DNA of 57,356 bases. Origin: an uncultured bacterium. GTDB taxonomy: Bacteria > Patescibacteriota > Minisyncoccia > Phycocordibacterales > PALSA-1337. Of this stretch, positions 16,658 through 40,039 are shown one piece after another (within the stretch, counting starts at the first letter, position 1; the number at the start of each line of letters is the position of its first letter). The DNA lies in NCBI GenBank assembly GCA_903839725.1, contig CAIMDG010000001.1:301315-358670 (forward strand). Direction: 5' to 3'. Made by a program: the position numbers and the translations under genes. The notes below the pieces were generated by a model that was not told the DNA's origin, searched no databases, and worked only from the letters and a program-made list of their open reading frames with translations.

Positions 16658-16739
16658 GCCGGGATGGCGGAATTGGTAGACGCACACGACTCAAAATCGT
16701 GCGGAGTAATCCATGGGAGTTCGATTCTCCCTCCCGGCA
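16658..16739 (+). tRNA. tRNA-Leu(CAA)
   Basis: gccggga/tcccggc acceptor stem, anticodon loop ctCAAaa, long variable arm, GTTCGA T-loop; CCA not encoded. Confidence 0.95.
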
Positions 16740-16770
16740 CAACAAAAGCTAGCTTGTCACTGAACTCTAA

Positions 16771-16919
16771 GCCGGGAAGCGACTCGCCTGCGCGAGTCGC
16801 GTGGGAGAATCGAAAAGGCTGAGTATATGGCGCGGAGCGAAGCGAGCACCATACGAAGCCTGTACTGGTCATGTAAGGACCGATTCTTTTTTGTTGAGAA
16901 AATTATCCGGGACCGATTC
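16771..16919 (+). repeat. tRNA-linked structured element (after tRNA-Leu CAA)
   Basis: gccggga + hairpin + gggagaatcgaa is the reverse complement of the tRNA 3' half, followed by GC-rich hairpins ending in gattct. Confidence 0.7.
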
Positions 16920-27931: not shown

Positions 27932-28963
27932 TTATTTCCCGGTAATTTTCTTTACCAATTTTCGAAGATTATACATATGATACCAAAATGGTTGAATAAC
28001 CACATCATAGAAATCCGCATGCTTCACTTCATAGCCACCAAACTTTTGCTTGAATATAGTCAGACCCTCCCAACCTTTGTACATATTTCCGACTGGCGCA
28101 ACACCACCAAAATTGTATGAAACACAACCAATACTTTTTGCCTGAACGATGGCTTTCCATTGTGCGGCATATGTTGGCATACGGTTGCGTTCTTCGGTAC
28201 TCGAACCTCCAAAGACATAGTTTGCGATACCACCAGAAATGATCACGAGATCAATCGCTAATATTTTGCCTTCAAATGAGGCTACTGACAGATATGAACC
28301 TGTGAGCTTGGGGAGGTCTGCAAAAATAAGTTGATAATATGCTTTGTCATGCAAATGGAAACCATTACGCTGTGCTGTTTCCGCCATCAATGTGTAAAAA
28401 GGCTCGAAGTATGTTTCAAAATTGTTTGTAATAATTTCAGAAATAATACCCTTACGATCTGCGAGACGTACTGAATAACGCGTTTTCTCGTGCATCGCTT
28501 TCATGATGTCATCTTCTGTTTGTTTCAAATCAAGAAACCATTCGAAGCGAGGTTGGAAATATGCTGAGTGATAGGTATACAATGGAGCTGATCTGAAATA
28601 CGGTTGTAATGCATCTGCCGAAACAGCAGGAGTAATATCCAAACGTGCAAATACTGCATTATGTTCTTGGGCAATACGTTCTATCTCGACCTTGAATCGA
28701 GTGAGAAATTCGGCGGATGTATCAGTACACACCGGACCATATGGAATATACAGATAGTTTTTACCATGAATGAGTGAGTACACTATTACCTGAAAATATG
28801 CGACGACAGTATCATTGTATTCAGCAACATATCTTTCGACACTACGACCAAGTTGCTTTTGCCAGTTTCCATAAAATGCTTGCTGGGTAAAAGGTATACC
28901 TGCATGAAGGATATTTGGGTCAAAAGCTTCACTTTCACCAAGTTTTCTGAAGAGATATGACAT
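27932..28963 (-). CDS. FemABX-family peptidoglycan bridge aminoacyltransferase
   Basis: FTQ..YGNWQ, YIPYGPV, KTRYSVRLA, YVFGGS, YNFGGV, FKQKFGG. Confidence 0.9.
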   Translation of the reverse strand: MSYLFRKLGESEAFDPNILHAGIPFTQQAFYGNWQKQLGRSVERYVAEYNDTVVAYFQVIVYSLIHGKNYLYIPYGPVCTDTSAEFLTRFKVEIERIAQEHNAVFARLDITPAVSADALQPYFRSAPLYTYHSAYFQPRFEWFLDLKQTEDDIMKAMHEKTRYSVRLADRKGIISEIITNNFETYFEPFYTLMAETAQRNGFHLHDKAYYQLIFADLPKLTGSYLSVASFEGKILAIDLVIISGGIANYVFGGSSTEERNRMPTYAAQWKAIVQAKSIGCVSYNFGGVAPVGNMYKGWEGLTIFKQKFGGYEVKHADFYDVVIQPFWYHMYNLRKLVKKITGK

Positions 28964-29007: not shown

Positions 29008-29179
29008 GAAGGATTTGCCCTCGTCCTCACTCGCTACCCGCTCATTCGTCCTGGGCACCGGCTCACGGTTCCTCGTTGCTACTCGGAACATCGTTCGCCG
29101 TTCAAATCCTTCACGCGAGGCGAGCAGTCGCCTCGCTCCCGTGCACCAATAAAAAATCCGCATCATGCGGATTTTTTAT
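29008..29179 (-). repeat. tRNA-linked structured element (after tRNA-Tyr)
   Basis: Minus strand tggtgcacggg + hairpin + gaaggatttgaac is antisense to the tRNA 3' end; core is homologous to 39923-40039. Confidence 0.8.
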
Positions 29180-29266
29180 TGGTGCACGGGGAAGGATTTG
29201 AACCTTCGTAGACCATAGGTCGATGGATTTACAGTCCATTGCAATTGACCGCTCTGCCACCCGTGC
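29180..29266 (-). tRNA. tRNA-Tyr(GTA)
   Basis: gcacggg/cccgtgc acceptor, atgga ctGTAaa tccat, long variable arm, encoded CCA. Confidence 0.95.
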
Positions 29267-38098: not shown

Positions 38099-38185
38099 TG
38101 TCATACCGGCGAAGGCCGGTATCCAGAAGCACATATTTTAAATTACTTTAAGTGACTCTGGATGCCGTCCTTCGACGGCATGACA
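38099..38185. repeat. Palindromic element family C, intergenic copy
   Basis: tgtcataccggcgaaggccggtatccag...ctggatgccgtccttcgacggcatgaca. Confidence 0.88.
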
Positions 38186-39709: not shown

Positions 39710-39712
39710 CTA

Positions 39713-39795
39713 GAGTTACAAGTGCAAAGTTGAAAGTTACAAGTTATACTCATTGTGTGTGTAATTTTGAACTTTTGACTTTGCACTTTTAACTT
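39713..39795. repeat. Heptamer-unit inverted repeat between tRNAs
   Basis: agttaca agtgcaa agttgaa agttaca ... ttgaact tttgact ttgcact tttaact. Confidence 0.7.
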
Positions 39796-39799
39796 ACTT

Positions 39800-39881
39800 G
39801 CGGGGGTGGCGAAATTGGTAGACGCACGTGCCTTAGGAGCACGCGGAGTAATCCTTGGAGGTTCAAGTCCTCTCCCCCGCA
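39800..39881 (+). tRNA. tRNA-Leu(TAG)
   Basis: gcggggg/cccccgc acceptor, cgtgc ctTAGga gcacg, long variable arm. Confidence 0.95.
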
Positions 39882-39900
39882 CAAACTGCAAATAACCACT

Positions 39901-40039
39901 AGTCTTGCGAAGCAAGACGTTCAGGACTTGAACGGCGGAGCTATATTGCGTCGAGCACGACGCAATAGCGAGCCGGTGGCCAGCCCGAACGAGGCGGGTA
40001 GCCGAGTGAGAGGCGAGGCCAAGTCCTCTCCCCCGCACA
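39901..40039 (+). repeat. tRNA-linked structured element (after tRNA-Leu TAG) ending in a direct repeat of the tRNA 3' end
   Basis: Hairpin + aggacttgaac (antisense T-arm) + conserved core + caagtcctctcccccgcaca (same as 39864-39883). Confidence 0.8.

What the first reader, a model, noticed from the sequence alone, without database searches (positions are those of the whole stretch)
29008..29179. tRNA-linked structured element carrying antisense sequence matched to each host tRNA (three copies)
Seen: three different tRNAs (Leu-CAA, element 16771-16919; Tyr, 29008-29179 minus; Leu-TAG, 39901-40039) are each followed by the reverse complement of that tRNA's own T-arm: gggagaatcgaa, gaaggatttgaac and aggacttgaac respectively. 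In Leu-CAA and Tyr the antisense acceptor strand is also present, separated from the antisense T-arm by a GC hairpin exactly at the acceptor/T-stem junction (gccggga[hairpin]gggag; tggtgcacggg[hairpin]gaagg). A multi-hairpin core follows and ends in a sense piece of the T-arm that pairs back. The Tyr and Leu-TAG cores are clearly homologous (gagccggtg.ccag..cgaa.gag.cgggtagc.gagtgag...cgagg.c). The Leu-CAA core is more divergent. Inference: a fixed scaffold with a variable tRNA-specific segment suggests a tRNA-targeted non-autonomous mobile element, a guide-like RNA, or a pre-tRNA processing/regulatory switch. I know no named family matching it.
Basis: partly seen in the sequence, partly recalled or inferred. 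Interest (0 to 1): 0.85.

Follow-up and report, generated by a model that had tools for sequence, protein, structure and literature searches.

The report
tRNA-linked hairpin insertion element family
About a third of the tRNA genes in this tiny bacterial genome are followed by a small, highly folded DNA element that carries both a mirror-image and a second direct copy of that tRNA's own tail, and it appears to be an undescribed kind of miniature insertion element.

Summary
In the 839-kb genome, 11 of 39 tRNA genes carry the element, including 3 of the 5 in the window.

Layout of each copy, read 3' of the intact tRNA:
- a spacer, often a terminator or a GC hairpin
- the reverse complement of the tRNA T-arm, sometimes also of the acceptor strand
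- an ~85-nt core that forms a three-way junction, in two families (A and B)
- a direct repeat of the tRNA 3' end starting in the T-loop.

Supporting evidence:
- There are no copies away from tRNAs.
- There is no Rfam, phage or plasmid match.
- Core helices covary strongly: 93-96% paired, against 27-43% in slid controls.
- G-U pairs are rare, which leans towards DNA-level pairing.
- Family A or B occurs in 48 of 61 relatives, patchily, at tRNAs for 13 amino acids, sometimes in tandem.
- The same tRNA can carry a different core in different species.
- Arms track tRNA changes between species.
- No recombinase, RAYT-like transposase, reverse transcriptase, TnpB or IS110 gene co-occurs with it.

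Best reading (0.4): a non-autonomous, hairpin-forming insertion element specific for tRNA 3' ends. The mechanism is unresolved. A functional tRNA-linked RNA remains possible.

The parts
16658..16740 (+). tRNA-Leu(CAA), intact host gene of copy 1
   Evidence: ARAGORN and Rfam tRNA
16771..16777 (+). copy 1: 7 nt complementary to the acceptor 3' strand
Evidence: It is too short for the 8-nt match list.
16778..16802 (+). copy 1: GC hairpin (H module) at the acceptor/T-stem junction of the inverted arm
   Evidence: fold. Hairpins of this type lie within 65 nt of a tRNA in 8 of 8 genome matches.
16803..16814 (+). copy 1: reverse complement of the T-arm (12 nt), 5' strand of helix P1
   Evidence: exact inverted match; alignment A2
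16815..16880 (+). copy 1: family-A core (long hairpin P2 and short hairpin P3 of a three-way junction)
   Evidence: alignment, consensus fold and covariation; model R2 hit 16803-16893
16881..16892 (+). copy 1: truncated direct copy of the T-loop/T-stem (6 nt, 3' strand of P1), followed by a T-run
   Evidence: sequence; terminator-like call for the preceding hairpin plus T-run
29180..29266 (-). tRNA-Tyr(GTA), intact host gene of copy 2
29149..29179 (-). copy 2: A-tract/hairpin/T-tract spacer (bidirectional terminator shape). It is the centre of a long palindrome formed by the tRNA 3' end and the antisense acceptor.
   Evidence: sequence; fold; 42-nt inverted self-match at 97.6% identity
29138..29148 (-). 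copy 2: reverse complement of acceptor 3' strand plus CCA (11 nt)
   Evidence: exact inverted match
29113..29137 (-). copy 2: GC hairpin (H module). The same 25 nt occur at tRNA-Ser(GCT) of this genome and at tRNA-Tyr of relative G024.
29100..29112 (-). copy 2: reverse complement of the T-arm (13 nt), 5' strand of P1
29018..29099 (-). copy 2: family-B core (P2, P3 with tandem G.A loops)
   Evidence: alignment A1, consensus fold and covariation on 61 distinct copies
29008..29017 (-). copy 2: direct copy of T-loop/T-stem 3' part (10 nt), 3' strand of P1, followed by a T-rich run
39800..39882 (+). tRNA-Leu(TAG), intact host gene of copy 3
39883..39922 (+). copy 3: spacer with a short GC hairpin (39902-39918); no antisense acceptor
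   Evidence: sequence and fold
39923..39933 (+). copy 3: reverse complement of the T-arm (11 nt), 5' strand of P1
39934..40019 (+). copy 3: family-B core
   Evidence: model R1 hit 39923-40038 at 132 bits
40020..40039 (+). copy 3: 19-20-nt direct repeat of the tRNA 3' end, from the T-loop to just past the discriminator

Best explanation
The three copies belong to a family of small (about 110-190 nt), ORF-less insertion elements that sit only at the 3' end of tRNA genes in Patescibacteria.

Layout of each copy: intact tRNA; spacer or hairpin; inverted copy of the tRNA's T-arm (sometimes also of the acceptor strand); a conserved core of two hairpins; a second direct copy of the tRNA 3' end from the T-loop onward.

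Fold: the inverted copy and the second direct copy pair with each other. The whole unit folds into a T-shaped (three-way) hairpin whose closing stem has the sequence of the host tRNA gene's 3' part.

Most likely, the element acts at the DNA level. As folded single-stranded DNA (or a cruciform), it would present a double-stranded copy of its target. It would enter or leave by recombination within the repeated tRNA 3' end, with an enzyme supplied in trans or by host recombination after DNA uptake. The tRNA stays intact throughout.

A one-strand exchange between such a hairpin and the tRNA gene would give exactly the observed order: tRNA end, spacer, inverted arm, core, tRNA end.

Shown: the anatomy, tRNA specificity, structural conservation, patchy and tandem distribution, and the absence of a linked gene.
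Inferred: DNA-level action, the route of insertion, and how the arms come to match each new tRNA.
For: Location and repeats:
- All 11 full copies in the genome lie directly 3' of tRNAs on the tRNA strand, with none elsewhere.
- Of 79 distinct copies in held loci, 59 have a same-strand tRNA within 400 nt upstream. Of these 59, 53 have an inverted match of at least 8 nt, 53 a direct match of at least 8 nt and 37 a direct match of at least 15 nt. The tRNAs cover 13 amino acids.
- A direct repeat of the tRNA 3' end beginning in the T-loop is the classic footprint of insertion into a tRNA gene. Six of 11 own copies keep 18-20 identical nt.
- Tandem units occur. Truncated derivatives also occur: Arg-CCT, Phe, and a core-less Tyr locus in G061.

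Distribution:
- Family B is in 41 of 61 relatives and family A in 42 of 61. Either is in 48 and neither in 13, some of which are 100% complete.
- Family B is in 8 of 151 genomes sampled across the phylum. All 8 loci examined are tRNA-linked.

Modularity:
- tRNA-Tyr carries a B core in this genome but an A core in G024, behind the same left module.
- Within the genome, a 62-nt patch is 96.8% identical between the Leu-CAA and Gly-TCC copies and is flanked by diverged hairpins.

Arms track the tRNA:
- At Gly-CCC in four species the T-stem differs. The second direct copy always equals the species' own tRNA, and the inverted arm has 0-2 mismatches.

Structure is conserved, with few wobble pairs:
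- Family B: 93.1% paired against 33-43% in slid controls; 30 of 35 pairs have double changes.
- Family A: 96.0% paired against 27-43% in slid controls; 24 of 29 pairs have double changes.
- G-U pairs are 34 of 1899 standard pairs in B and 8 of 462 in A. They are 74 of 925 predicted pairs in this genome's tRNAs.
- Both strands fold equally well.

Other mobile elements use the repeated tRNA end as a landing site. Islands encoding a large serine recombinase lie directly after it in G031.
Against: - No enzyme was found. Large serine recombinases are present in 29 of 48 element-bearing and 9 of 13 element-free relatives. A RAYT-like Y1 transposase is in 20 of 48 and 7 of 13.
- This genome has no RC Rep, RVT_1, TnpB-type or IS110-type match. 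Its second tyrosine recombinase occurs in only 4 of 61 relatives.
- No clean filled/empty pair of one site was obtained. Flanks are not conserved at DNA level between species. A metagenome scan for the predicted empty Leu-TAG site found nothing.
- A hairpin carried over from one tRNA would not match another tRNA. Re-templating or homogenisation of the arms must therefore be assumed and is not shown.
- The inverted arm is not a pure copy of the target. It has recurrent deviations shared by copies at different tRNAs.
- Units at Gly-CCC look orthologous across species, so part of the distribution is vertical.
- The wobble-pair deficit rests on alignments fitted to the models and on an MFE-based tRNA control.
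- In several copies the native terminator follows the second tRNA-end copy. The element could therefore be co-transcribed with the tRNA and act as RNA.
Confidence: 0.4

Rival explanations
1. A functional non-coding RNA made with the tRNA. The unit would be transcribed as part of the tRNA 3' trailer and fold into a tRNA-like minihelix: an acceptor-like stem plus a T-stem-like stem, with the GC hairpin where the D and anticodon arms would be and the core in place of the T-loop. It could then be cut out by tRNA-processing enzymes. Possible roles are a decoy or regulator of tRNA maturation, a partner of tRNA-using enzymes, or a folding or termination switch in which the antisense arm can pair either with the tRNA or with the second copy.
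For: - The element always lies on the tRNA strand, 37-73 nt after the tRNA in most copies.
- In Gly-CCC, Leu-GAG and Glu-TTC of this genome a terminator follows the second tRNA-end copy, not the first.
- The second copy ends at or within about 2 nt of the mature tRNA 3' end, and includes an encoded CCA where the gene has one.
- Covariation is strong, unpaired junction and loop bases are conserved, and tandem G.A loops are present.
- G-U outnumbers A-C mismatches 34 to 17 on the tRNA strand in family B.
Against: - Wobble pairs are rare compared with the genome's tRNAs.
- In the Tyr and Ile copies, and in several relatives, a terminator-shaped hairpin separates the tRNA from the unit.
- No promoter-like site lies in the three window copies (a simple sigma-70 scan).
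- The element is absent from 13 of 61 relatives, including complete genomes, and rare across the phylum.
- Five of 11 own copies have a truncated second copy.
- Tandem and mosaic arrays look like insertion debris.
Confidence: 0.25
2. Passive scars plus a terminator. The direct repeat would be what is left of integrative islands that once sat in these tRNA genes. The structured part would be the island-borne piece that supplied a new 3' flank and terminator to the tRNA, kept because it terminates tRNA transcription. It would have no mobility of its own.
For: - tRNA 3' ends in this group are busy integration sites. In 8 of 20 large-serine-recombinase loci the recombinase reading frame overlaps a convergent tRNA 3' end.
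- Islands lie directly after units in G031 and G010.
- tRNA-Phe of this genome has a plain 23-nt repeat of its end (1 mismatch) 47 nt downstream, without any core.
- In the truncated copies (Leu-CAA, Tyr, Ile) the closing stem is followed by a T-run.
Against: - The same cores recur at tRNAs for 13 amino acids and in other classes of the phylum, with arms adapted to each tRNA.
- 18 of the 20 recombinase loci fetched carry no family-B unit and none a family-A unit.
- Element and recombinase counts are unrelated. For example, G053 has 18 units and no recombinase match, while G030 has no unit and 7 matches.
- Compensatory changes in 30 of 35 and 24 of 29 pairs show selection on the fold, beyond what a generic terminator needs.
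- A scar would not keep an inverted copy of the target.
Confidence: 0.2
3. A guide RNA. The fixed scaffold plus a roughly 20-nt tRNA-matched 3' segment would guide a nuclease or recombinase to the tRNA gene, in the manner of transposon-encoded omega RNAs or bridge RNAs.
For: The format is a conserved scaffold followed directly by about 20 nt identical to the target, whose upstream neighbour in the tRNA gene is the invariant GTTC of the T-loop.
Against: - This genome has no TnpB-type, IS110-type or reverse-transcriptase match.
- No gene is consistently adjacent to the element.
- The first 8-13 nt of the would-be guide are sequestered in helix P1.
- The core (about 85 nt) is shorter than such scaffolds. 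That size comparison is recalled, not tested.
Confidence: 0.05

Closest known systems
Genomic islands and integrative elements in tRNA genes, and their gene-less derivatives (cis-mobilisable elements bounded by attachment sites)
   Same: The tRNA stays intact and is followed by the insert, then by a displaced direct copy of the tRNA 3' end that starts in the T-loop. Tandem accretion at the regenerated site occurs.
   Different: The insert is only about 110-190 nt and has no integrase. The same scaffold occurs at tRNAs for 13 amino acids. It carries an inverted copy of the target and a conserved three-way hairpin. None of these is a feature of such islands as far as I recall. The Tycheposon preprint passages I read mention partial tRNAs but no hairpin.
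Folded single-stranded recombination sites: CTX-phage attP(+) and integron attC (recalled from the literature, not read here)
   Same: Two inverted copies of a recombination site are separated by a loop of tens of nucleotides. They fold into a hairpin that mimics the double-stranded target. After a one-strand exchange and replication, the order would be site, element body, inverted site, loop, site, which is the order seen here. Structure is conserved more than sequence.
   Different: The target here is a tRNA 3' end, not dif or attI. The element body is only a spacer. The loop is itself a conserved two-hairpin core. The stem sequence differs with each target. The attC core motifs are not present. 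No dependence on a tyrosine recombinase has been shown.
REPIN/REP elements with RAYT transposases, and other hairpin MITEs
   Same: Short, ORF-less, GC-rich palindromic elements in intergenic DNA, present in several copies and thought to move as single-stranded hairpins.
   Different: The copies lie only at tRNA 3' ends. The arms are target-specific, not element-constant. The RAYT-like gene of this genome is flanked by unrelated hairpins, and its presence does not track the element.
tRNA-like minihelices (tmRNA tRNA-like domain, viral tRNA-like ends) and T-shaped hairpin termini of parvoviruses (shape only, recalled)
   Same: An acceptor-like stem is stacked on a T-stem-like stem and ends at the tRNA 3' end. 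The three-way hairpin is about 115 nt.
   Different: No Rfam tRNA or tmRNA hit falls on the unit. The T-loop is replaced by the core. No Rep gene is present in this genome.

Membership tests
tRNA-targeting integrative element / genomic island | Intact tRNA gene plus displaced direct copy of its 3' part bounding the insert | tested here: met
   Direct repeat of at least 8 nt in 53 of 59 copies with a tRNA, and of at least 15 nt in 37 of 59. In the own genome, 10 of 39 tRNAs have a repeat of at least 10 nt, against 0 of 39 upstream.
tRNA-targeting integrative element / genomic island | Integrase or recombinase gene inside the insert | tested here: not met
   The insert is 110-190 nt without an ORF. 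Recombinase presence in relatives is unrelated to element presence.
tRNA-targeting integrative element / genomic island | Filled and empty versions of the same site | tested here: inconclusive
   The tRNA-Tyr locus lacks the unit in G068 and G033 and has it in 8 of the 10 loci read, including G000. Flanks differ, so no base-exact empty site was found. The metagenome scan for a predicted empty site gave 0 hits.
MITE / REPIN | Constant terminal inverted repeats and a cognate transposase in trans | tested here: not met
   The arms change with the tRNA. The RAYT-like gene is in 20 of 48 element-bearing and 7 of 13 element-free relatives. Its own flanking hairpins are unrelated.
Folded-ssDNA recombination site (attC / CTX attP type) | Imperfect inverted repeat with a variable centre, conserved as structure | tested here: met
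   Helix P1 plus core; 93-96% paired; double changes in 30 of 35 and 24 of 29 pairs. Both strands fold.
Folded-ssDNA recombination site (attC / CTX attP type) | Recombination by a tyrosine recombinase (IntI or Xer) on one strand | not testable with these tools
   One Xer-like gene is present in this genome.
Any described RNA family (Rfam 15) | Covariance-model match | tested here: not met
   At gathering thresholds only the five tRNAs match. Permissive scans of the B and A copies give nothing near a family threshold.
Guide RNA of a transposon nuclease or recombinase (omega RNA, bridge RNA) | Encoded next to, or in the same genome as, its protein | tested here: not met
   No PF07282, PF01548 or PF02371 match in the own genome.
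Retroelement using a tRNA primer | Reverse transcriptase present | tested here: not met
   No RVT_1 match in the own genome, which is 96.7% complete. In CCA-less genes the repeat has the gene's sequence after the discriminator, not CCA.

The most novel reading that the evidence does not exclude
The element may be a transposase-free or host-enzyme-driven mobile hairpin that re-templates its own arms from whatever tRNA gene it enters. This could happen by fold-back (snap-back) DNA synthesis or by arm-to-arm correction within the sense-antisense-sense arrangement. One conserved scaffold could then colonise any tRNA gene while leaving the tRNA intact. That would be a nucleic-acid-templated way of choosing and copying a target, unlike any described insertion mechanism. 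A variant of this reading is that the scaffold is read by an undiscovered enzyme as folded DNA or RNA, which would make it a programmable tRNA-gene-targeting system.
Probability: 0.15. Interest if true: 0.9.

Novelty: new variant of a known kind. Interest (0 to 1): 0.72.

Why it matters
Patescibacteria have tiny genomes with little spare DNA. Yet up to a third of their tRNA genes carry this conserved folded element, which no annotation pipeline or RNA family library names.

If it is mobile, it shows a way to insert next to essential single-copy tRNA genes without harming them and without an encoded enzyme. Its target-matched arms pose a clear mechanistic puzzle.

If it is an RNA, it is a new tRNA-linked RNA class in a phylum whose RNA biology is almost unexplored.

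In either case the two covariance models built here would let the element be annotated. That would help to explain contig breaks at tRNA loci and to mark integration hot spots used by recombinase-bearing islands.

Tried and rejected
- Rfam at gathering and permissive thresholds gave nothing but tRNAs.
- Pattern scans of IMG/VR gave 3 hits for the family-B pattern, all in GC-rich coding DNA without the element, and 0 hits for the family-A pattern.
- blastn of the Leu-TAG unit against the phage and plasmid collections gave no match.
- I first read the large serine recombinases as the likely mobiliser, because two G031 islands are flanked by 174-176-nt identical unit copies. I rejected this for three reasons. 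Counts do not track the element. Only 2 of the 20 recombinase loci fetched hold a family-B unit, and none holds a family-A unit. The layout is explained more simply by an island landing directly after a tRNA-end copy between resident units.
- I rejected the RAYT-like Y1 transposase for the same reasons.
- I rejected the rarer tyrosine recombinase, RC Rep, reverse transcriptase, TnpB and IS110.
- The GCGAAGC mini-hairpin motif as a DNA signature: the 7-mer is common throughout the genome, so I dropped the argument.
- Hammerhead-like and group II domain-V-like resemblances seen by eye did not fit the defining motifs (recalled) and have no Rfam support.
- Expression: no RNA holder was listed for this DNA, so expression, strand and ends could not be examined.
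- Laying contigs of four DNA runs gave no joint that skips a unit. Contigs cannot show absence of rare variants.
- Filled versus empty sites: the search of 61 same-genus genomes with the Leu-TAG locus found only the tRNAs and cores, not the flank. The metagenome scan for the predicted empty site found nothing. I did not use the second scan that was then allowed.
- Supplements of papers were not consulted.
- Papers: I saw only search listings, and passages of the Tycheposon preprint. Statements about CTX phage, integron attC, REPIN/RAYT, IS91, parvovirus termini and cis-mobilisable elements are recalled, not read here.
Full report
**What is there**

The window lies in an 839-kb, three-contig genome with 41% G+C. 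Titled records that carry the same core motif are metagenome-assembled genomes labelled Candidatus Saccharibacteria, Patescibacteria group, Ca. Taylorbacteria or Ca. Parcubacteria. The remaining hits of that scan lie in high-G+C organisms; I took them as chance matches without inspecting them.

ARAGORN finds 5 tRNAs in the window and 39 in the genome.

Each copy reads, 3' of an intact tRNA:
- a spacer of 30-70 nt. This is a terminator-shaped hairpin in Tyr, and a GC hairpin I call H in all three.
- in Leu-CAA and Tyr, the complement of the acceptor 3' strand, placed just before H.
- the reverse complement of the T-arm (11-13 nt).
- a core of about 85 nt.
- a direct copy of the tRNA 3' end beginning in the T-loop.

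In Leu-TAG it runs 19-20 nt, to just past the discriminator.

**Extent in the genome**

Eleven of 39 tRNA genes carry a full unit.
- Family A core: Glu-TTC, Ala-TGC, Leu-CAA, Ser-GCT, Gly-TCC, Ile-GAT.
- Family B core: Glu-CTC, Tyr, Leu-TAG, Leu-GAG, Gly-CCC.

Derivatives also exist.
- Arg-CCT has only H plus the inverted T-arm.
- Phe has only a 23-nt repeat of its end, with one mismatch.
- The convergent Arg-TCT/Val-TAC pair shares one H-type hairpin.

blastn of the 11 units against the genome finds no copy away from a tRNA. H-type hairpins lie within 65 nt of a tRNA in 8 of 8 matches.

Matches of at least 10 nt to the tRNA's last 26 nt:

| Match type | Own downstream 200 nt | Own upstream | tRNA vs foreign downstream |
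|---|---|---|---|
| Inverted | 11 of 39 | 0 of 39 | 35 of 1482 |
| Direct | 10 of 39 | 0 of 39 | 18 of 1482 |

**Structure**

Both families fold the same way. Helix P1 is formed by the inverted T-arm and the start of the second tRNA-end copy. P1 closes a three-way junction with a long hairpin P2 and a short hairpin P3. Both families contain tandem G.A internal loops.

| Measure | Family B (61 distinct copies) | Family A (18 copies) |
|---|---|---|
| Cells paired | 93.1% | 96.0% |
| Paired when partner is slid | 33-43% | 27-43% |
| Pairs with changes on both sides | 30 of 35 | 24 of 29 |

These alignments were fitted to the models, which leans the counts towards the structure. The seed alignments made by MAFFT already showed 20 of 35 and 16 of 29 compensated pairs.

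One-sided changes are rare.
- G-U is 34 of 1899 standard pairs in B, against 17 A-C mismatches.
- G-U is 8 of 462 standard pairs in A.
- In the same genome's tRNAs, 74 of 925 MFE-predicted pairs are G-U.

Both strands of the Tyr unit fold better than all 200 shuffles. I read the wobble deficit and this symmetry as a lean towards pairing that matters in DNA. It is a lean, not a proof.

**Distribution**

- Among 61 relatives (37 of the genus counting G000, 24 other genera of the order), B is found in 41 and A in 42.
- Either family is found in 48 and neither in 13. The 13 include genomes rated 100% complete.
- Across 151 genomes drawn from the phylum, B is found in 8, counting G000.
- All 8 loci read from the 7 other genomes are tRNA-linked. 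Seven of the 8 have a direct repeat of 18-21 nt.

Of 79 distinct copies in the loci I held:
- 59 have a same-strand tRNA within 400 nt upstream.
- Of those 59, 53 have an inverted match of at least 8 nt, 53 a direct match of at least 8 nt, and 37 a direct match of at least 15 nt.
- The tRNAs cover 13 amino acids.
- 20 have no called tRNA, and 4 of these sit at a locus edge.
- Among 12 of the remainder that I read, several follow a tRNA 3' fragment or another unit.

**Signs of turnover**

- tRNA-Tyr lacks the unit in G068 and G033.
- tRNA-Tyr has an A core in G024, G084, G014, G078, G031 and G006, with tandem units in G006.
- It has a B core in G000.
- It has a core-less remnant in G061.
- G024 and G000 share the same terminator type, antisense acceptor and an identical 25-nt H.
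- Leu-CAA has an A core here and a B core in G024.
- Within this genome a 62-nt patch is 96.8% identical between the Leu-CAA and Gly-TCC units, while H and P3 differ. This suggests exchange between units.
- Tandem units occur in several genomes.
- In three loci from other lineages the repeat continues beyond the tRNA end, through the spacer and H, before breaking off.

**Co-variation with the tRNA**

The Gly-CCC units of G000, G032, G015 and G013 share a spacer type, so they look orthologous. The T-stems of the four tRNAs differ.
- In each species the second copy equals the species' own tRNA end.
- The inverted arm follows with 0-2 mismatches.

The inverted arm is not always a pure copy. Several copies at different tRNAs, in different lineages, share the same deviation next to the junction. 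That deviation would form tandem G.A pairs instead of Watson-Crick pairs.

**Search for an enzyme**

Large serine recombinases are abundant in relatives: 38 of 61 genomes, with up to 13 matches in one genome. In 8 of 20 loci their reading frame overlaps a convergent tRNA 3' end.

Two islands in G031 are flanked by identical 174-176-nt unit copies. Both carry such a recombinase, and the one on contig C10 also an RC Rep. One island in G010 carries a helicase and a MazF-like gene and is flanked by a 175-nt repeat.

The simplest reading is that these islands landed directly after a tRNA-end copy, between resident units. The reasons are:
- Recombinase presence is 29 of 48 in element-bearing genomes and 9 of 13 in element-free genomes.
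- Only 2 of the 20 recombinase loci hold a family-B unit, and none holds a family-A unit.

Other candidates:
- A RAYT-like Y1 transposase is present in G000. It is found in 20 of 48 element-bearing and 7 of 13 element-free genomes, and it is flanked by unrelated hairpins.
- G000 has one Xer-like recombinase and one rarer tyrosine recombinase, the latter in 4 of 61 relatives.
- G000 has one serine recombinase.
- G000 has no RC Rep, RVT_1, TnpB-type or IS110-type match.

**How it most likely works**

The anatomy is sense, antisense, sense. The tRNA end and the inverted arm flank the spacer. The inverted arm and the second tRNA end flank the core.

A folded single strand of the unit would be a hairpin whose stem is a double-stranded copy of the tRNA gene's 3' part. 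Exchange of one strand between such a hairpin and the tRNA gene, followed by replication, would give exactly the observed order. This is the way recalled for CTX-phage attP(+) and integron attC.

Alternatively, the unit may spread by DNA uptake and host recombination. The conserved tRNA would serve as one homology arm and the second tRNA-end copy as the other.

Frequent loss and gain through the two direct copies would also put the second copy under selection as a working tRNA end. That would explain why it stays identical to the tRNA while the rest of the unit diverges.

None of these steps is shown. How the inverted arm comes to match a new tRNA is open. Candidates are fold-back synthesis, correction within the palindrome, or selection for P1.

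I put 0.4 on a DNA-level non-autonomous insertion element, 0.25 on a functional tRNA-linked RNA, 0.2 on passive scars with terminator function, and 0.05 on a guide RNA.

**Novelty**

- No Rfam family matches.
- No phage or plasmid record matches.
- Five full-text searches returned nothing that describes it (listings only).
- The nearest known kinds share single features only. These kinds are tRNA-targeting islands and their gene-less derivatives, folded single-stranded recombination sites, and REPINs.

I therefore class it as a new variant of a known kind, with a real chance that the mechanism is new.

**Limits**

- There are no RNA data.
- No base-exact empty site was found.
- Other core families may exist that models R1 and R2 miss.
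- Relatives are not independent samples.

Noticed in passing
window 27932-28963 (-): A FemAB-family protein (a family of aminoacyl-tRNA-dependent peptidoglycan bridge transferases) is encoded directly downstream of tRNA-Tyr and its unit (Pfam E = 1.3e-33). A homologous gene start (first ~12-30 residues read by eye) also follows tRNA-Tyr in G024 and G068, and query positions 22-685, which lie within this gene, match both genomes.
   Followed up: partly
L042 (G031:C10:8000-19500) and L044 (G031:C2:6500-17500): Islands of about 5.5-6.6 kb are each flanked by identical 174-176-nt unit copies. Both carry a large serine recombinase; the L042 island also has a rolling-circle Rep (REP_ORF2-G2P). In L044 the recombinase reading frame runs through the unit on the opposite strand, so its last 42 residues are encoded by the unit's complement.
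   Followed up: partly
relatives G017, G031, G032 and others: Large serine recombinase genes are unusually numerous for genomes of 0.7-1.0 Mb, with up to 13 matches in one genome. In 8 of 20 loci their 3' end overlaps a convergent tRNA gene's 3' end.
   Followed up: partly
L043 (G010:C5:197500-207500): A 6.3-kb island between two unit copies has 55-nt terminal inverted repeats whose outer tips resemble the acceptor end of tRNA-Glu and its complement. It encodes a helicase and a MazF-like protein, but no recombinase was found.
   Followed up: partly
G000:C2:109053-109616 (-), locus L150 1339-1905: A single RAYT-like Y1 transposase gene lies between two genes whose products begin like type IV pilin/pseudopilin prepeptides. 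It is flanked by short REP-like hairpins that are unrelated to the tRNA-linked element.
   Followed up: partly
L010 (G000:C2:301330-301550): Convergent tRNA-Arg(TCT) and tRNA-Val(TAC) share one 15-bp-stem hairpin of the H type as a common 3' flank, without any core.
   Followed up: no
window 38139-38141 and 39710-39799: Contigs of all four metagenome runs show a 37-nt replacement at 38139-38141 and a form that skips 88 nt between tRNA-Lys and tRNA-Leu(TAG). These are probably related strains or species in the same lake samples.
   Followed up: no
L133 (G001:C3:68000-78000): A tRNA-Gln(TTG) overlapped by a serine recombinase gene has an unusual T-loop (TCCGACT instead of the usual TTCGAAT type) and a T-stem changed on both strands. 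This suggests the island supplies the whole T-arm.
   Followed up: no
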